From the IMG/VR virus record IMGVR_UViG_3300048834_000253, positions 1 through 51,705 of that record: a DNA stretch of 51,705 bases. One strand, written 5' to 3'. Source of the DNA: a virus (taxonomy: Duplodnaviria; Caudoviricetes). Below the pieces are notes generated by a model that was not told the DNA's origin, did no database searches, and saw nothing but the letters and a program-made list of their open reading frames with translations. Positions 36,199-41,321 of this stretch are shown one piece after another (within the stretch, counting starts at the first letter, position 1; each line of letters begins with the position of its first letter). The position numbers and the translations under genes were made by a program.

Positions 36199-36230
36199 CT
36201 GTTCGCCCTTCAATGCCCAAAAAAAAGAAA

Positions 36231-36284
36231 CCATCGGCAGGCAGGCGGGCGTGTCCTGCTTTTCGGGAGCTACCCTAGCCGTGG
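36231..36284 (-). ncRNA. Candidate three-way-junction cis-RNA upstream of rep
   Basis: CCA-CGGC/GCCG-A-TGG closing stem, GGG-TAGCT-CCC, GAAAA, GCAGG/CCTGC, then a U-rich tract. Confidence 0.5.
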
Positions 36285-36293
36285 CGTCAAAAC

Positions 36294-36852: not shown

Positions 36853-37110
36853 TTACGCGGCCTCTGTGGTGGTGGTCTTGGGCTTGCGGGGCTTGGCGCG
36901 CAGCACCGCCCAATTCACATCGGGGCGCAGCGCCTCACACTTGACTCCGGTAGCGGCCTCCACATCAGGGCAGTGTTCTGCTGGGATGCGGTTCTGCTGC
37001 CACTGATAGACAACTGCGTGGCCGCTGAGTCCAAGTTTCCTTGCGAGCTTGGTGCGACCGCCCGCAAGGCGGATAGCCTGATCGAGTGGGGTTTCGGTGG
37101 TGGTGTCCAT
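36853..37110 (-). CDS. cro: Cro/YdaS-like repressor
   Basis: AI..AGG...LA..LG.....V.QW...IP..C..VE..TGV...LRPDV.W; divergent from cI. Confidence 0.9.
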   Translation of the reverse strand: MDTTTETPLDQAIRLAGGRTKLARKLGLSGHAVVYQWQQNRIPAEHCPDVEAATGVKCEALRPDVNWAVLRAKPRKPKTTTTEAA

Positions 37111-37119
37111 ATGCCCCAC

Positions 37120-37177
37120 ATCTTACGATAGTTTTTCTATCTTGTATAGATTTTCTAGCGCTCCAAGTGATTACCCT
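37120..37177. promoter_or_regulatory. OR: two operators plus PR and PRM
   Basis: GATAG-TTTTT-CTATC (37127-37141) and ATAG-ATTTT-CTAG (37146-37158). PR is TATACA-17-TAAGAT on minus; PRM -10 TACCCT lies 6 nt before the cI ATG. Confidence 0.75.
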
Positions 37178-37183
37178 GATACC

Positions 37184-37795
37184 ATGAGCATCCACAAATT
37201 GATCAGACAGGGCCGCGAGCGCCTCGGGTTGACCGAGGAAGCATTCGGAAAACTTTTCGGAGTGAGCCGTGGCGCGGTGCAGCAATGGGAGCGGGAGGGG
37301 GGGACGGCCCCACGGCGCAAGATTCAGCCCCTAGTCGCTCAAGCTTTAGGCATTTCTGTTGCACAGCTCATGGGTGGCGGCGCAGACACTGCGGATGGCC
37401 CGGATATAGGAGGTGTTGTGCCGCTTTTAACGTCAGTACAGGCTGGGGATTTCAAAGAATTTGTGGATAACTTCCACCCAGGGGACGGGGCCATGGAGTC
37501 CATACCGACATCAGTGCCCGTCAACCGCCACACTTTCGCGCTCCGGGTAGCTGGTGACAGCATGGAGCCTGAGTTTCACGCTGGGATGATCCTCATCATT
37601 GAGCCGGAAATGGAGCCAAACCCCGGAGATTTCGTCGTGGCGCGCAATGGCGACAACGAAACTACGTTCAAGCAACTGATTCAAGATGGCGCAGACTGGT
37701 ATCTGAAGCCCTTGAATGACCGCTACCCAATCAAACCACTTGGGAAGTCATCAATCATTGGGGTGCTGCGCGCAGTAGAGAAGCGCTACCGCTAA
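37184..37795 (+). CDS. cI: CI-like repressor (HTH-XRE plus S24 peptidase)
   Basis: GVSRGAVQQWE HTH, VQAG cleavage site, GDSM and TFKQL catalytic Ser/Lys. Confidence 0.95.
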   Translation: MSIHKLIRQGRERLGLTEEAFGKLFGVSRGAVQQWEREGGTAPRRKIQPLVAQALGISVAQLMGGGADTADGPDIGGVVPLLTSVQAGDFKEFVDNFHPGDGAMESIPTSVPVNRHTFALRVAGDSMEPEFHAGMILIIEPEMEPNPGDFVVARNGDNETTFKQLIQDGADWYLKPLNDRYPIKPLGKSSIIGVLRAVEKRYR

Positions 37796-37815
37796 ACCAA
37801 CCAAATTCAACAATC

Positions 37816-37840
37816 GGCCACCTTCGGGTGGCTTTTTTTT
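37816..37840 (+). terminator. cI terminator
   Basis: GCCACC-TTCG-GGTGGC followed by T8. Confidence 0.9.
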
Positions 37841-37873
37841 CGTCTGTACGGGTAACTACTTACAACATTCTTA

Positions 37874-37913
37874 GATAGTTTTTCTTGCTTTGCTAGTTTT
37901 TCTATCGCATAAT
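37874..37913 (+). promoter_or_regulatory. OL operators and PL-like early promoter
   Basis: TTGCTT-17-CATAAT overlapped by GATAGTTTTTCTTG and GCTAGTTTTTCTATC. Confidence 0.8.
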
Positions 37914-37996
37914 TCACTCACGCCAACAAAACGGCGCGGGTGACAAGCCATCGAGCAGGCCACCGACAGGAACCTTAAAAATCTTTTTCCTGCGGA

Positions 37997-38283
37997 TCAG
38001 TTGTTGCACTTTACGCAACAACTGACAGCCCTTGATTGGGTAGTGGGCGCGGACACCGGGCGTGAGACGGTGATTGAGGCGATGCCAGCCAACAACAGCA
38101 AGGGCATCAAGACAGCGAGCGTCCCGCGTGGGGTAGCGCTTGAGTCGAGAAGCTGGAGCCGGTGCATACCGGGAGACGCCAGCAGCAGCACACACCAAGG
38201 CGAAGCGCCATGGTTTGAAAGGACGTGCTGCAAACACCTTCGCAGAGGGTGCAAACAGAAGGCGAACAAGCCTTCTGTTTGCG
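37997..38283 (+). ncRNA. Highly structured early leader, unit A
   Basis: Serial hairpins at 37997-38025, 38152-38183 and a 13-bp stem before the HNH SD; no convincing ORF. Confidence 0.5.
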
Positions 38284-38291
38284 AGGAAAGT

Positions 38292-38786
38292 ATGACGAAA
38301 CACATGACTGCAGAGGTGGCGCGTGAAATCCTAATTTACGAGCCGGAAACAGGTCTGTTCCGCTGGAGAGTGGATCGGGGAAACGGGCATCGTGCCAATG
38401 ATCTGGCTGGAAGGATGAACAGCAATGGGTATTGGGTTGTTGGGTTCAAACAATATCCGCTACTCGCGCATCGTCTTGCCTGGCTGTACATGACCGGCGA
38501 ATGGCCTCCCTTCAATGTTGATCACATAAATGGGGACAGGTGTGACAACCGCTGGGCAAATCTCCGAGACGGCAGCGGCCCCATAAACGCACAGAACGTC
38601 AGGCGAGCGCAAAGAAATAACAACTCATCCGGGCTTCTTGGTGTAACCAAGAGGCAAGGCAGGTGGGAAGCGCAAATCAAGTCGCAAGACGCAAAGAGGT
38701 ATTTAGGCTCTTTCGGATCGCCGGAAGATGCCCATGCCGCCTATGTTGAAGCCAAGCGCAGGCTACATGCTGGATGCACCATCTAA
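38292..38786 (+). CDS. HNH-AP2 homing endonuclease
   Basis: Y.PETG.F.W, AHRLAW, VDHING...DNR..NLR and YLG.F...E.A..AY motifs. Confidence 0.92.
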   Translation: MTKHMTAEVAREILIYEPETGLFRWRVDRGNGHRANDLAGRMNSNGYWVVGFKQYPLLAHRLAWLYMTGEWPPFNVDHINGDRCDNRWANLRDGSGPINAQNVRRAQRNNNSSGLLGVTKRQGRWEAQIKSQDAKRYLGSFGSPEDAHAAYVEAKRRLHAGCTI

Positions 38787-38807
38787 CAAGGCGGGCGCTC
38801 AGGTGGG

Positions 38808-38897
38808 CGCAACAACTGACGGACACGGCACTGATAGAGATCAGCAAAGCACCGGCCAGCGGTGCAGCAGGAACCGGCACAGCCGGAATATGCCTGC
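38808..38897 (+). ncRNA. Structured unit B (partial duplicate of unit A)
   Basis: CGCAACAACTGAC repeat plus a covarying GCAGG..CCGG..CCGG..CCTGC hairpin. Confidence 0.5.
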
Positions 38898-38920
38898 AAG
38901 CCATTCGAGAGAGTGGCAAA

Positions 38921-38956
38921 GCCCATGCGCCAGTCACTGAGGGCGCATGGGTTTTT
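38921..38956 (+). terminator. Intrinsic terminator
   Basis: CCCATGCGCC/GGCGCATGGG stem followed by T5. Confidence 0.75.
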
Positions 38957-38968
38957 CAAGGAGCCAGA

Positions 38969-39181
38969 ATGATCGAAGTCACGAAAGAACGGTTTTTCGC
39001 AACAGTAGGGCTGATGGACGTGCACCCAAGGGCCAACCCTGACCACTCGTCATGGGAGACACGCAGCCGCGAGGTTGTCGGGCGCACCACGCCGGGCTAT
39101 CTGTGCCGCGATGAAATCGGCCAATGGACGAACAAGAGCAGGTACTTCGTGGCCGAGCGCTTCTCCAGGGACAGCCAGTAA
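38969..39181 (+). CDS. Hypothetical protein, 70 aa
   Basis: AAGGAG SD; MIEVTKERFF..DVHP. Confidence 0.7.
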   Translation: MIEVTKERFFATVGLMDVHPRANPDHSSWETRSREVVGRTTPGYLCRDEIGQWTNKSRYFVAERFSRDSQ

Positions 39182-39241
39182 CCCCCCCCGCCCCTACACC
39201 AGGGGCCGGGAGTTCACGCCTCGCCCCACGTAACGTGGCGG

Positions 39242-39762
39242 CCATCACAGAACAGGAATGCGCAGGAGGAGTTATGCGACCAACGAAAGAGCAGATTGCC
39301 GAGCACTTTGACTACATGGCTGGCGCATTGATTCGCAAGACGACGGGAAAGCGCGGGTACGCCAGGCCAGACGGATATGTTTACGTGCGCCTGCATGGCA
39401 GGTCATATGGCGAGCATCGGCTGATCCATTTGCTGTTTACCGGCGAGTGGCCGCACCAAGTTGACCATGCGAATGGCGTTCGTAGTGATAACCGCCATGA
39501 GAACCTGCGTTCGGCCACACACGCTCAAAACTGCATGAATCGCAAACAGATTGGCGTCACAAGCAAAGGGTGCTACTGGCTGCCAAAGCGGCAGAGGTGG
39601 ATGGCTCAGATCGGCAGCGGCGGCAAGCGCAAAACCATTGGCTACTTCAGGACAGAGGCTGAGGCCGCAGCGGCATATGCCATGGCCGCAGAAGCCCTCC
39701 ACGGCCCGTTCAAGCGAACTTCCTAAATGCCGGAGATCAGCACCGGCCCTGTTCTGTGATGG
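39242..39762 (+). ncRNA. Structured RNA cassette copy 1, enclosing an HNH gene
   Basis: Perfect 15-bp inverted repeats at 39242-39256 and 39748-39762; GAATGCGCAGG after the 5' arm; GCCGG-AGATCAGCA-CCGGC before the 3' arm. Confidence 0.65.
39274..39726 (+). CDS. HNH-AP2 homing endonuclease inside the RNA cassette
   Basis: AGGAGG SD; EHRLI, VDHANG...DNR.ENLR..T..QN..N and IGYF.T..EA..AY motifs. Confidence 0.92.
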   Translation: MRPTKEQIAEHFDYMAGALIRKTTGKRGYARPDGYVYVRLHGRSYGEHRLIHLLFTGEWPHQVDHANGVRSDNRHENLRSATHAQNCMNRKQIGVTSKGCYWLPKRQRWMAQIGSGGKRKTIGYFRTEAEAAAAYAMAAEALHGPFKRTS

Positions 39763-39864
39763 TGAATGCCCGGTGGTGATGGGCTATGAGAAAGAGCAGT
39801 GCAACAAGCCGTTCCTGATTTCAGGACTGCACGGCAAGCCGGAGACACACCACCGGCCACCATC
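39758..39864 (+). ncRNA. Structured RNA cassette copy 2 (empty)
   Basis: GATGGTG/CACCATC stem; AAT-GCCC-GGTGGTGAT-GGGC; 53-nt structured insert; GCCGG-AGACACACCA-CCGGC. Confidence 0.65.
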
Positions 39865-39946
39865 TTCAATTCGCCCAGCGCCTCTGCTTCGGTACGCGCT
39901 GGCTATCAACTATCCCCAAATATCTGGCAGCAGATATTCCACAAAC

Positions 39947-39970
39947 AGCCCTGCAATGCGGGGCTTTTTT
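39947..39970 (+). terminator. Intrinsic terminator
   Basis: AGCCCTGC-AAT-GCGGGGCT followed by a T run. Confidence 0.8.
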
Positions 39971-39982
39971 CATGGAGCAACT

Positions 39983-40696
39983 ATGGCCCACAAGCAATCG
40001 TGCACCGAGGAACGATTCCTCAAAGACGCGGCAGCTCACCATATGGAGGTGCTGCGCGATGACGGTGTGAACCGCCATTTGCGATTCAAGAATCCCGAAT
40101 CGAACGCCTACTGGTTCGACATCATCACTTGGCCCGGCACGCTGTGCGTTGACGGCGACATGGGCACCTTCGTGTTCCGGCGCCTGCATGACATGTTCGT
40201 GTTCTTCCGCACGGATCAGGAGCACTACGACCGGACGGGCCGCGCCGACCGGTTGGCGATCAACCCCAGCTACTGGGACGAAAAGCTGCGCGCGCCAGCG
40301 CCACGCGATGCCCAGGAATACTGCGCCGACAGCTTCCGCCAGCATGTCCAAGAGGCTTTCGACAGCTGGAAGGAGAGCAATCAGCCCGACGACGACGAAT
40401 GGACCACCGATGCCGACCGGCGCCAATTTGAAGAGCAGCGGGATGCGCTCTGGGCCGCGCTGAAAGAGGACGTGATGTCGTATGCCGATGACGGCTTGAT
40501 TCGCGCCTACGACGCGGCCCGCGACTTCCGCTGCGATGAGGTGCCGGGGTTCAACCTGGAGGACTGCTGGGAGTGGGACTGCCAGGTGTTCAAGTTCGAT
40601 TTCCTGTGGAACTGCTACGCCATCGCGTGGGGTATCAAGACCTACGACAAGGCGAAGCAGGCGGCGCAAGCAGCTCCGGAACTGCAGCAGGGCTGA
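39983..40696 (+). CDS. Conserved phage protein, 237 aa
   Basis: GGAG SD; RHLRF, FDIITWPG.L...GDMG...F and IN..YW.EKL motifs. Confidence 0.85.
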   Translation: MAHKQSCTEERFLKDAAAHHMEVLRDDGVNRHLRFKNPESNAYWFDIITWPGTLCVDGDMGTFVFRRLHDMFVFFRTDQEHYDRTGRADRLAINPSYWDEKLRAPAPRDAQEYCADSFRQHVQEAFDSWKESNQPDDDEWTTDADRRQFEEQRDALWAALKEDVMSYADDGLIRAYDAARDFRCDEVPGFNLEDCWEWDCQVFKFDFLWNCYAIAWGIKTYDKAKQAAQAAPELQQG

Positions 40697-40700
40697 ACTC

Positions 40701-40910
40701 ATGGCCCGCAAGTTCCGCTGGACGCGCGCCCTCTACCGCCGCGCGCACCGCGAGGCCCGTGTCTATGACGGCTACGGGTTCATGTACCACAACGAGCCCG
40801 CCCTTGTCCGGCGCTGGCGCGAGCTGTGGGACCAGCACCCGCAGCACGAAGACCCGTTGACGCGGCCCAAGTGGCAGCGATACCGGCCAGACGACGGAAT
40901 CCCGTTCTGA
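40701..40910 (+). CDS. Hypothetical protein
   Basis: 69 aa ending DDGIPF. Confidence 0.6.
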   Translation: MARKFRWTRALYRRAHREARVYDGYGFMYHNEPALVRRWRELWDQHPQHEDPLTRPKWQRYRPDDGIPF

Positions 40911-40918
40911 ATTCACAC

Positions 40919-40940
40919 AGCCCGCCTAGCGGGTTTTTTT
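40919..40940 (+). terminator. Intrinsic terminator
   Basis: CCCGC-CTA-GCGGG followed by T7. Confidence 0.8.
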
Positions 40941-40961
40941 ACGCCCGCAAGGAGGCCCCCC

Positions 40962-41321
40962 ATGCAGAACGTGCACCCCATCTTTCAGCAGGCCCTAGCA
41001 GGCATCGCACCGCCTGCCGACGCAAAGCACTGGCAGGCGATGTGCATCCGACTGCGCACAGAGCTGACGCTCTACGACGCTCCACAGCCGCCGCGTGGGC
41101 AATTCGCCTTCACCTACCGCCACCCCGAGCTGGGCACGCTGGAGTGCCACCTCGAAGGCGAGCGCGGCGACCCGGACATCGGGCAGCGCGACACGGCAAC
41201 GCTGTACAGCGCCTACCTGCGGGGGGTGGACATTGCCGACCGGCTGACCCGCGACGAAGTGGAAGCAATCGAACTTGCAGCGGTCAAACAACCACACCAG
41301 GAGCTACACCATGTTGATTGA
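40962..41321 (+). CDS. Hypothetical protein
   Basis: AAGGAGG SD. Confidence 0.75.
   Translation: MQNVHPIFQQALAGIAPPADAKHWQAMCIRLRTELTLYDAPQPPRGQFAFTYRHPELGTLECHLEGERGDPDIGQRDTATLYSAYLRGVDIADRLTRDEVEAIELAAVKQPHQELHHVD

What the first reader, a model, noticed from the sequence alone, without database searches (positions are those of the whole stretch)
39242..39762. An entire HNH endonuclease gene packaged inside a structured RNA cassette
Seen: a perfect 15-bp inverted repeat (CCATCACAGAACAGG/CCTGTTCTGTGATGG) encloses AAT, hairpin 1 (CGCA-GGAGGAGTTA-TGCG, holding the SD in its loop and the start codon at its 3' arm), the HNH-AP2 ORF, and hairpin 2 (GCCGG-AGATCAGCA-CCGGC). The same scaffold recurs immediately downstream without the gene. 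Inference: a phage ncRNA family with a tolerant variable loop colonised by an endonuclease, as in intron- or HEARO-type RNA+ORF elements, but with no group I/II core or IscB features. It may be an excised or processed RNA, a translational switch, or a new mobile RNA-ORF unit. This is my best candidate for an undescribed system.
Basis: partly seen in the sequence, partly recalled or inferred. Interest (0 to 1): 0.85.

Follow-up and report, generated by a model that had tools for sequence, protein, structure and literature searches.

The report
Homing endonuclease inside phage RNA module
The inverted repeat is the closing stem of a widespread, apparently undescribed structured RNA module of temperate phages, and in this phage a selfish HNH endonuclease gene has replaced the module's variable middle part.

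Summary
A perfect 15-bp inverted repeat (39242-39256 / 39748-39762) brackets an intact HNH_3-AP2 gene (39274-39726), and a gene-less copy of the same architecture follows at 39758-39864.

Comparative data show that both copies belong to one RNA module family. Its parts are a closing stem of variable sequence, an AAT linker, hairpin P2, a hypervariable region V2, and hairpin P3 abutting the closing stem. The P2 and P3 loops are complementary.

I recovered over 100 modules from Burkholderiales and enterobacterial temperate phages, including IME10, Gally, two Stx2c-converting phages and Erwinia phage vB_EhrS_59. Where annotation exists, the module sits downstream of the repressor gene in the early operon. 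On 65 distinct modules, 97% of pair cells pair, against 24-53% for slid controls. The loop-loop contact occurs in three compensating versions. No Rfam 15 family matches.

Four of five HNH-occupied modules have HNH-less counterparts with the same closing stem, for example L021 for this window. The gene replaces the P2 3' half and V2. One module carries a probable GIY-YIG endonuclease in the same slot.

RNA processing, the HNH target and the module's function remain untested.

The parts
39223..39241 (+). P0: short GC-rich hairpin abutting the closing stem (GCCCCACG-TAA-CGTGG(C)GG, one bulge).
   Evidence: Read. An equivalent hairpin of varying, complementary sequence precedes P1 in the Burkholderiales-type relatives.
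39242..39256 (+). Module A closing stem, 5' arm (CCATCACAGAACAGG).
   Evidence: pair I2. The identical arm closes a gene-less module at L021:2707-2721.
39257..39259 (+). AAT linker of module A.
   Evidence: AAT follows the closing stem in most modules (alignment A5).
39260..39278 (+). GCGCA is retained and the loop is replaced by GGAGGAGTTA, which carries the Shine-Dalgarno sequence. TGCG forms the 3' strand, and the start codon ATG is at 39274-39276.
   Evidence: Gene-less modules read AATGCGCAGGCTGATGCGC at this place. The HNH-occupied modules share AATGCGCAGG and then diverge.
39274..39726 (+). HNH_3-AP2 endonuclease gene (150 aa, intact), of the free-standing homing-endonuclease type.
   Evidence: Pfam. 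There are 71 homologues at E<=1e-20 among 132 candidates, with up to 97% identity. The 29-sequence alignment A2 has 39 invariant columns.
39729..39747 (+). The loop is of the TCAGC type and has lost its GCTGA partner.
   Evidence: The identical P3 is seen in enterobacterial modules. The motif CAGCACCGGCC is kept at the 3' end of all close HNH cassettes.
39748..39762 (+). Module A closing stem, 3' arm (CCTGTTCTGTGATGG).
   Evidence: pair I2; L021:2814-2828.
39758..39864 (+). Module B, an intact gene-less module. Closing strand GATGGTG (39758-39764); AAT (39765-39767); P2 GCCCG-GTGGTGA-TGGGC (39768-39784); V2 (39785-39837); P3 GCCGG-AGACACACCA-CCGGC (39838-39857); closing strand CACCATC (39858-39864).
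   Evidence: The covariance model R1 scores 69.6 bits here, although this sequence is in the seed. There are 22 distinct relatives of this type.
39947..39971 (+). Intrinsic-terminator-like hairpin plus T run, 82 nt after module B and just before the next gene (start at 39983).
   Evidence: Terminators follow the module directly in L022, L024, L052 and L055.

Best explanation
The region 39242-39864 holds two tandem copies of a modular structured RNA element. Such elements occur in temperate (lambdoid-type) phages; where gene annotation was available (two named records, plus this window's own layout) they sit in the early operon downstream of the repressor gene.

A module has these parts:
- a closing stem of 7-24 bp whose sequence differs between modules;
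- a 3-nt linker, usually AAT;
- hairpin P2 (5 bp);
- a hypervariable region V2 (about 40-200 nt);
- hairpin P3 (5 bp), which abuts the 3' closing strand.

The P2 and P3 loops are complementary to each other (a kissing contact).

Module B (39758-39864) is intact. In module A (39242-39762) a free-standing HNH_3-AP2 homing endonuclease gene has replaced the 3' half of P2 and all of V2. The retained P2 5' half (GCGCAGG) now forms part of the gene's ribosome-binding site, and P3 is retained behind the stop codon. The perfect 15-bp inverted repeat is therefore the module's pre-existing closing stem, not a transposon end.

Shown here: the family, its structure, the replacement junctions and the existence of gene-less alleles.

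Inferred, at roughly 50%: this HNH lineage cuts gene-less module DNA and is copied in by break repair, using the conserved P2 and P3 or the closing-stem sequences as short homology.

Inferred, at roughly 30%: in the transcript the closing stem pairs the two ends of the unit and is a double-strand-specific (RNase III-type) processing site. Cleavage there would release the module, or here a monocistronic HNH mRNA.

What the intact module does is not known.
For: (1) Each element was recovered when it was not the bait.
- A scan with the P2 sequence gave 36 stretches, of which 27 also carry P3 and the tail.
- A scan with one closing-stem arm gave 74 loci. Of these, 66 have both arms, and most of those carry P2 and P3.
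Of the 81 matches examined, 69 have the P2 motif upstream and 60 have at least 7 contiguous closing pairs, drawn from 24 different 7-nt arms.

(2) Pair counts on 65 distinct modules.
- 97.3% of 1204 cells pair, against 24-53% for slid partners.
- The covariation score is 0.234, against at most 0.059 for slid partners and 0.086 for shuffles (0 of 500 shuffles reach the observed value).
- 9 of 19 pairs show changes on both sides.

(3) The kissing contact compensates in three versions: GCTGA:TCAGC, GGTGA:TCACC (or TGGTG:CACCA), and GATGA:TCATC.

(4) G-U pairs occur on the + strand. All annotated contexts place the module on the sense strand of the early operon.

(5) Gene-less modules exist with the same closing stems as HNH-occupied ones.
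- Window and L021:2707-2828.
- L057 and L081, plus 64 others.
- L055 and L273/L253; L059 and L286.

(6) Of the 6 close HNH homologues in IMG/VR including the window (at least 58% identity), 5 sit in such a frame. Similarity starts abruptly at AATGCGCAGG and ends at CAGCACCGGCC, while the stems are unrelated.

(7) A second, unrelated endonuclease type occupies the same slot at L250. Its Pfam matches are GIY-YIG at E 2.2e-4, NUMOD3 and SegE_GIY-YIG, all just under cut-off.

(8) There is no conserved ORF in gene-less modules. Reading frames opened at the P2 ATG run mostly 2-20 codons.

(9) No Rfam 15 match at any threshold tried.
Against: - No direct evidence that the module exists as a discrete RNA. 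Metatranscriptome contigs hold module ends, but they cannot show transcription or RNA ends, and the one raw-read run laid no reads.
- Members were found with exact sequence baits, so conservation of each baited piece is by construction. Many sequences are closely related, so covariation counts overstate the number of independent events. For example, the 22 GC cells in the kissing pair come from one subfamily.
- In the window and its Burkholderiales relatives, the 5' closing strand of module B overlaps the 3' arm of the upstream stem by 5 nt. Both helices cannot form fully at once.
- The window and L021 share only the closing stems and the P3 loop. Their linker, P2 and P3 stems differ, so the exact recombination path is unclear.
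- L056, a 58% homologue in an AT-rich phage, shows no flanking stem.
- HNH target specificity is untested.
Confidence: 0.72

Rival explanations
1. The RNA plus ORF is an autonomous, intron-like or ribozyme-based mobile RNA. It would excise, circularise or splice out of the early transcript and move through an RNA intermediate.
For: - A structured RNA frame encloses an endonuclease ORF, as in mobile group I introns.
- The two ends are brought together by a long stem.
- The same cassette ends occur in different stems.
Against: - No group I or II intron, or any ribozyme family, matched at E<=10 in 38000-40200, nor at gathering score over the window.
- The element lies between genes, so there is nothing to splice back together.
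- The HNH insertion destroys P2 and the kissing contact, rather than sitting in a peripheral loop of an intact core.
- No reverse transcriptase is present.
Confidence: 0.07
2. The gene-less modules are not functional RNAs. They would be decayed or internally deleted remnants of HNH cassettes, that is non-autonomous footprints left by the homing cycle. The stems would be incidental intergenic hairpins.
For: - Cassette ends and module ends are the same sequences (AATGC......GCCGG-N-CCGGC).
- Module B shares GAAAGAGCAG with the first codons of the HNH gene at a similar offset (family D20).
- V1 and V2 are hypervariable in length and sequence.
- Lee et al. 2007 (PMC2248197, passages read) describe progressive decay of HNN-AP2 genes in Xanthomonas phages.
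Against: - tblastn of 29 HNH proteins against 21 distinct modules found nothing better than E 0.038.
- Gene-less modules outnumber occupied ones: 65 to 1 for one closing-stem type and 68 to 1 in the P3 sample.
- P2, P3 and especially the loop-loop contact compensate across subtypes. Decay would not maintain that.
- An unrelated GIY-YIG-type gene uses the same slot.
Confidence: 0.1
3. A DNA-level element. The inverted repeats would be terminal repeats of a small transposon- or MITE-like unit mobilised by the HNH protein, or cruciform or hairpin DNA sites that the nuclease recognises by shape.
For: - Perfect 13-19 bp inverted repeats abut the cassette exactly in three contexts.
- The nuclease lineage is found repeatedly at hairpin apexes.
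Against: - The repeats are unrelated in sequence between cassettes whose proteins are 68-73% identical and whose internal ends are identical.
- There are no target-site duplications.
- The same repeats close gene-less modules.
- G-U pairs fit only one strand, and a loop-loop contact covaries, which points to RNA.
- Shape-specific cutting of the module DNA is not excluded and is compatible with the best explanation.
Confidence: 0.06
4. A chance inverted repeat around an ordinary free-standing HNH gene.
For: Free-standing HNH genes are common in phages, and short repeats are common in GC-rich DNA.
Against: - 0 of 300 shuffles reach 15 nt.
- The same stem is found in L021.
- The same arrangement is seen in L055, L057 and L059.
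Confidence: 0.01

Closest known systems
Mobile group I introns carrying homing endonuclease ORFs in peripheral loops. The phage examples with HNH enzymes such as I-HmuI and I-TevIII are recalled. I-PfoP3I was seen only as title and abstract in search listings (PMC3428280).
   Same: An endonuclease ORF is embedded in a structured RNA whose ends are paired. The RNA's conserved sequence offers a conserved DNA target. Gene-less and gene-bearing versions of the same RNA coexist.
   Different: There is no intron core and no Rfam intron match. The element is intergenic, so there are no exons to rejoin. The ORF replaces part of the conserved structure (the P2 3' half and V2) instead of sitting in a dispensable loop.
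Free-standing phage homing endonucleases: the T4 seg and mob genes (T4 mobE seen as title and abstract in search listings, PMC2790892) and the HNN-AP2 genes of Xanthomonas phages Xp10, OP1 and Xop411 (PMC2248197, passages read).
   Same: The same protein type (HNH_3 plus AP2; about 40% identity to an Xp10 gene by tblastn). The location is intergenic, with its own ribosome-binding site. Several such genes occur per phage: this window has at least two HNH_3-AP2 genes, 41% identical to each other.
   Different: Lee et al. found no conserved flanks and proposed sequence-independent spread. Here one clade has conserved cassette ends and sits in a defined RNA module in 5 of 6 cases.
   Same: An HNH-domain ORF is physically linked to a conserved structured RNA.
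   Different: IscB is a large RuvC-HNH protein guided by its RNA (recalled). Here the protein is a 150-aa HNH_3-AP2 with no RuvC domain. No HEARO match was found. The RNA exists mostly without any ORF.
The T4 gene 60 bypass element travelling with the mobA endonuclease (bioRxiv 10.1101/2022.08.31.505936; search listing and abstract only).
   Same: A functional RNA element and a homing endonuclease gene form one cassette in phage genomes.
   Different: The bypass element acts within a coding sequence during translation. The module here is non-coding and intergenic.
tRNA-like RNAs, that is tRNA-shaped domains such as those of bacterial Y RNAs (recalled).
   Same: A typical 7-bp closing stem continues directly into a 5-bp hairpin, a second hairpin touches it loop to loop, and a variable arm lies between. 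tRNA genes lie next to modules in L034, L040 and L081.
   Different: ARAGORN calls no tRNA or tmRNA in the modules. No Rfam tRNA or Y RNA match was found. The loop sequences are not tRNA-like.

Membership tests
HNH_3-AP2 free-standing homing endonuclease (protein) | HNH_3 nuclease domain above Pfam cut-off | tested here: met
   52 bits against a cut-off of 24.8, E 5.5e-14. The D-H...N...N motif columns are invariant in 29 homologues.
HNH_3-AP2 free-standing homing endonuclease (protein) | C-terminal AP2 DNA-binding domain | tested here: inconclusive
   30.9 bits, E 3.4e-7, just under the 33.3 cut-off. Precomputed Pfam lists PF00847 for most homologues.
HNH_3-AP2 free-standing homing endonuclease (protein) | Presence/absence polymorphism at the same site in related genomes | tested here: met
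   The same closing stems occur with and without the gene: window and L021, L057 and L081, L055 and L273/L253, L059 and L286.
HNH_3-AP2 free-standing homing endonuclease (protein) | Site-specific cleavage of the gene-less allele | not testable with these tools
   Needs an enzyme assay.
New RNA module family (defined here) | Closing stem abutting the linker and P3 | tested here: met
   Module A has 15 bp and module B has 7 bp. In the P3 sample, 60 of 69 modules have at least 7 contiguous pairs, with 24 different arms.
New RNA module family (defined here) | P2 and P3 hairpins with compensating changes | tested here: met
   P2 cells are 99.1% paired with 4 of 5 pairs changed on both sides. P3 cells are 95.4% paired with 2 of 5 pairs changed on both sides. 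Module A keeps P3 but only a remnant of P2.
New RNA module family (defined here) | Complementary P2 and P3 loops | tested here: met
   Module B pairs TGGTG with CACCA. Across the family 95% of cells pair, in three compensating versions. The contact is not met in module A, where a Shine-Dalgarno loop replaces the partner.
New RNA module family (defined here) | Exists as an RNA | tested here: inconclusive
   G-U pairs and sense-strand orientation favour RNA. Metatranscriptome contigs show presence only.
Group I / group II intron | Conserved catalytic core detectable by the Rfam models | tested here: not met
   No intron hit at E<=10 in 38000-40200 nor at gathering score in the window.
HEARO / IscB omega-RNA | HEARO RNA model match, and a RuvC-HNH protein of several hundred residues (recalled) | tested here: not met
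   No Rfam hit. The protein is 150 aa with HNH_3 and AP2 only.
tRNA / tmRNA | Cloverleaf recognised by ARAGORN or the Rfam tRNA model | tested here: not met
   No gene was called in L001 or L019-L025, nor inside the modules of L022, L034, L040, L045 and L081. There is no Rfam tRNA hit on the modules.
Transposon or MITE with terminal inverted repeats | Terminal repeats conserved among copies, flanked by target-site duplication | tested here: not met
   The repeats are unrelated between cassettes that have identical internal ends. No direct duplications are seen at the ends.

The most novel reading that the evidence does not exclude
The module is a self-contained, tRNA-shaped RNA cassette of temperate phages. 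Its conserved P2 and P3 arms frame an exchangeable hypervariable cargo RNA (V2), perhaps a decoy, regulatory or anti-defence RNA made at the very start of infection. The same conserved arms serve as portable target and homology for at least two unrelated homing-endonuclease families. Endonuclease-driven gene conversion would then shuffle RNA cargoes between phages. This would be an intron-like partnership of RNA and endonuclease that needs no splicing.
Probability: 0.25. Interest if true: 0.85.

Novelty: new variant of a known kind. Interest (0 to 1): 0.72.

Why it matters
Three points.

First, it defines a structured RNA family with strong comparative support, including a compensating loop-loop contact. 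The family is present in cultured and well-used temperate phages: IME10, Gally, vB_EcoM-ep3, Erwinia vB_EhrS_59 and Stx2c-converting phages. It is also in about 3% of sampled genomes of one Burkholderiales family. It is unannotated in nearly all the named records where I found it, absent from Rfam 15, and not found in my literature searches. In the window and the two named records I examined, it lies in the early operon next to the immunity region, the most studied regulatory region of lambdoid phages.

Second, it gives a concrete, testable target for a clade of HNN-AP2 endonucleases. Earlier work judged the spread of such genes to be sequence-independent (PMC2248197).

Third, it shows homing endonucleases colonising a non-intron RNA gene. 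That bears on how intron-endonuclease partnerships begin.

Tried and rejected
- Nucleotide search of 38900-40100 against 50,697 phage records found no match.
- Relatives found through the downstream gene (17 loci) mostly lack the scaffold. Only L006 has it, so synteny was a poor route.
- Rfam searches gave nothing on the modules: gathering on the window, E<=10 on 38000-40200, E<=0.1 on L019-L025, gathering on six enterobacterial loci, and E<=0.01 on L155-L161.
- ARAGORN called no tRNA or tmRNA inside the modules.
- The promoter scan found none in 37500-41000.
- The single-sequence fold of 39182-39985 includes the 15-bp stem but has a modest z of -2.08. It does not predict P2 of module B, so I relied on comparative data instead.
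- The decayed-HNH hypothesis was rejected for lack of residual similarity and because of structural covariation.
- The transposon-end hypothesis was rejected because the repeats are unrelated.
- The idea of a conserved small ORF starting at the P2 ATG was rejected.
- The tail CACCAYC as a direct repeat or att-like site was considered and dropped. It is better read as the 3' closing strand, because it covaries with GRTGGTG.
- RNA evidence gave no verdict. The look-up of sequencing runs on L081:6380-6640 returned 24 runs. Read laying on X3, X11, X12 and X21 showed metatranscriptome contigs that hold module ends with other V2 sequences between them. One contig had depth 43.8. Contigs cannot show transcription or ends, and raw-read run X21 laid 0 reads.
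- Literature. Six literal motif strings gave 0 papers. Four keyword searches and one more that gave 0 papers turned up no description of this module. PreS of lambda (bioRxiv 10.1101/2024.10.31.621285, passages) and the Pas sRNAs (bioRxiv 10.64898/2026.05.13.724894, abstract and sections 15 and 17) are different RNAs.
- A catalogue of 10,006 unnamed candidate viral RNAs (PMC10690425, passages read) may contain this motif in its supplements, which I could not see.
- Distant HNH homologues (L060-L080, at most 47% identity) mostly show no flanking repeat. L063-65 (10 nt) and L068 (9 nt) were not followed up.
Full report
**What is in the window.**

The window is a complete IMG/VR virus record of 51,705 bp with direct terminal repeats. 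The finding lies in a block of + strand genes. These start with an S24/HTH repressor gene at 37097-37795 followed by an intrinsic-terminator-like hairpin at 37816-37833.

The 15-nt inverted repeat is exact and has 491 nt between its arms. It is the only exact pair of that 15-mer in the window. None of 300 flank shuffles reached its length.

Between the arms lies an intact 150-aa ORF, 39274-39726, with an HNH_3 domain (E 5.5e-14) and a near-threshold AP2 domain. A GGAGGAG Shine-Dalgarno sequence precedes it, and the hairpin GCCGG-AGATCAGCA-CCGGC follows it.

Directly downstream, 39758-39864 repeats the layout without a gene: GATGGTG, AAT, a 5-bp hairpin with loop GTGGTGA, 53 nt, GCCGG-AGACACACCA-CCGGC, CACCATC.

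**Finding relatives.**

Nucleotide search against cultured phages found nothing. Of 17 loci found through the downstream gene, only L006 carried the scaffold.

L006 showed a hairpin homologous to the window's stem but with a 26-nt loop and two compensating changes. It is followed by the same downstream element.

Exact-pattern scans with the downstream P2 sequence gave:
- 7 viral stretches, all with P3 and tail;
- 6 genome stretches, 2 with P3 and tail (a Burkholderiaceae MAG and Acidovorax sp. NB1);
- 23 metagenome stretches, 18 with P3 and tail.

The 9 stretches without P3 and tail also fail to pair in P2 and look like chance matches. In every true member an upstream hairpin (P1) of 15-19 bp precedes the element. 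Its sequence differs from member to member and its loop is 5-164 nt. Only the window has a gene there.

**The HNH gene and its frame.**

The protein has 71 homologues at E<=1e-20 among 132 candidates, all without informative names. Cultured phages hold only relatives of at most 44% identity.

I therefore used IMG/VR loci found by protein patterns.

Five loci hold homologues of 58-73% identity.
- **L055:** the gene lies between a perfect 13-bp inverted repeat (0 of 300 shuffles).
- **L057:** it lies between a 19/20-nt repeat with one bulge.
- **L059:** it lies between a 7-bp stem.
- **L058:** it lies directly after a P1-type hairpin and TG.
- **L056** (AT-rich): no stem was seen.

Alignments show that the cassettes share their ends. 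These are AATGCGCAGG, then a Shine-Dalgarno sequence, at the 5' side, and CAGCACCGGCC at the 3' side. The flanking stems are unrelated in sequence.

**The gene-less module.**

A scan with the L057 stem arm returned 74 loci. L081 shows the same stem around a gene-less interior of 100 nt: AAT, GCGCA-GGCTGA-TGCGC, about 60 variable nt, CAA, GCCGG-AGATCAGCA-CCGGC.

Of the 74 loci:
- 66 have both arms;
- 65 of those have interiors of 62-190 nt, most with P2 and P3 and with at least 30 different V2 sequences;
- one, the L057 contig, has the 480-nt HNH interior.

So the HNH cassette ends are the P2 5' half and the P3 of a module. The gene has replaced the P2 3' half and V2.

The P2 loop GCTGA is complementary to the P3 loop TCAGC. 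In the window's module B and its relatives the loops read GGTGA/TCACC or TGGTG/CACCA. In a third module, L055:2823-2941, they read GATGA/TCATC.

**Structure statistics.**

I aligned 43 distinct enterobacterial-type and 22 distinct Burkholderiales-type modules. I then counted 19 pairs: 4 closing pairs, 5 in P2, 5 in P3 and 5 kissing pairs.

- 97.3% of 1204 cells pair, against 24-53% when the partners are slid by 1-3 columns.
- 9 pairs change on both sides.
- The covariation score is 0.234, against at most 0.059 for slid partners and 0.086 for shuffles (0 of 500 shuffles reach it).

Caveats:
- The sequences are related.
- Each subfamily was gathered with a sequence bait.
- The kissing pair's 22 GC cells are one subfamily.

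Against those caveats, each element was recovered when it was not the bait. Of 81 matches examined:
- 69 have the P2 motif upstream;
- 60 have at least 7 contiguous closing pairs, from 24 different 7-nt arms;
- 11 stems contain G-U pairs;
- interiors run from 64 nt (median 112), with a single one above 400 nt.

Reading frames opened at the ATG in P2 are mostly 2-20 codons, and 13 of the 65 modules had no ATG at that place. The modules are therefore non-coding.

**Gene-less alleles of the occupied modules.**

- L021:2707-2828 has exactly the window's 15-bp closing stem around a gene-less module: ACC, GCCCA-GGCTGT-TGGGC, about 55 nt, GCTGG-AGATCAGCA-CCAGC.
- L273 and L253 have the L055 stem.
- L286 has the L059 stem, together with its unusual AGT linker.
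- L081 and 64 others have the L057 stem.

Thus the stems pre-exist and the gene is the newcomer.

One further module, in L250, carries a 179-aa ORF between GCGCAGGCTGA and P3. That ORF has GIY-YIG, NUMOD3 and SegE-type matches, each just under its Pfam cut-off. A second endonuclease family therefore probably uses the same slot.

**Context and spread.**

A covariance model built from the 65 modules finds only module B as a whole module in the window, plus the P3 of module A as a weak fragment. It finds modules not used to build it in:
- an E. coli prophage (109 bits);
- a Stx2c-converting phage (102 bits);
- Erwinia phage vB_EhrS_59 (98 bits);
- 4 of 141 genomes sampled from the family of Acidovorax sp. 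NB1, that genome included.

One enterobacterial variant occurs at 94-100% identity in 10 of the 15 matching phage records. These include IME10, Gally, vB_EcoP-611R6, vB_EcoM-ep3, KO-TP1 and two Stx2c-converting phages. Nothing is annotated under the match in all but one record.

In the E. coli prophage the order is repressor, an HNH fragment, the module, then early genes up to gam and bet. In the Erwinia phage it is CI, the module, N antiterminator, cIII, recombinase. This matches the window's order.

tRNA genes lie within about 10 nt after the module in L034 and L040, and about 180 nt before a second module in L081. Intrinsic terminators follow modules in L022, L024, L052 and L055, and 82 nt after module B.

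**What it most likely is and does.**

Shown:
- a modular structured element, most simply an RNA, because G-U pairs fit only the sense strand and a loop-loop contact covaries;
- module A is a member whose interior was replaced by an HNH-AP2 homing endonuclease gene;
- the inverted repeat is its closing stem.

Inferred: the endonuclease clade targets gene-less module DNA. The support is 5 of 6 close homologues sitting in modules, conserved cassette ends, and presence/absence alleles. The conserved P2 and P3 or the closing-stem sequences may give the short homology for repair. Recombinase genes of the bet type are present in such phages.

More speculative: the long closing stem is a double-strand-specific processing site that frees the module or the HNH mRNA from the early transcript. 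RNase III processing in the lambda N leader is the recalled analogy.

The typical 7-bp closing stem runs directly into a 5-bp hairpin, which touches a second hairpin loop to loop. This is tRNA-like in outline, and the modules sit beside tRNA genes. But no tRNA detector accepts them.

**Unexplained.**

- In the window and its Burkholderiales relatives, module B's 5' closing strand shares 5 nt with the upstream stem's 3' arm. All three partners covary. The two helices therefore compete, or form in sequence.
- The function of the intact module and the meaning of V2 hypervariability are unknown.

**Novelty.**

- No Rfam 15 family matches.
- Literal motif strings occur in no paper of the library.
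- Keyword searches found no description.
- A 2023 catalogue of unnamed viral RNA candidates might include it in supplements that I could not read.

I rate the finding a new variant of a known kind. Homing endonucleases colonising a structured RNA is the known kind. The new element is a non-intron, previously undescribed module family.

Noticed in passing
window 38292-38786: A second HNH_3-AP2 gene (164 aa), 41% identical to the one in the module. It sits in the early leader. Similarity to relatives L006 and L037 resumes at 38793, just after its stop codon, so it looks like a separate insertion. A perfect 13-bp hairpin (38251-38282) lies just before its start.
   Followed up: partly
window 37997-38025 and 38809-38819: The hairpin TCAGTTGTTGC-7 nt-GCAACAACTGA has its 3' arm repeated about 790 nt downstream, on the far side of the first HNH gene (pairs I8 and I9). 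This is a possible duplication at that insertion.
   Followed up: no
window 38837-38857: GAGATCAGCAAAGCACCGGCC resembles the module's P3 loop and 3' strand with 3 extra bases (families D18 and D19). The surrounding 38793-38959 is conserved in L006, L037, L020 and L045. The covariance model does not call it a module.
   Followed up: partly
window 39183-39213; L006 1143, 2325, 3314; also L034, L037, L050: An intergenic repeat, a C-rich run followed by the hairpin GCCCCTACACCAGGGGC and CGGGAG, recurs after several early genes in the Burkholderiales phages.
   Followed up: no
window 36216-36285 (-): The only Rfam match at gathering score in the window is int-alpA RNA (53.7 bits).
   Followed up: no
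L250:3523-4153 (-): A module whose interior holds a 179-aa probable GIY-YIG/NUMOD3 endonuclease gene in place of V2.
   Followed up: partly
L022 and L045, loops of the upstream P1 hairpin: The loops end in hairpins that look like tRNA T-arms (that label is recalled). They lie directly before the 3' arm. ARAGORN calls no tRNA there.
   Followed up: partly
L034 1011-1085, L040 682-1002, L081 4895-4970: tRNA genes (Arg-UCU in all three loci, plus Met and another in L040) lie immediately next to modules on the same strand.
   Followed up: partly
L155 2722-3015 (E. coli MB20 prophage): An annotated 97-aa HNH endonuclease, probably a fragment, lies between the repressor gene and the module. This mirrors the window's layout.
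   Followed up: no
L020 (oriented), about 150 nt after its module; run X12, loose end at L081:6558: Modules or module starts occur in tandem in other phages too.
   Followed up: no
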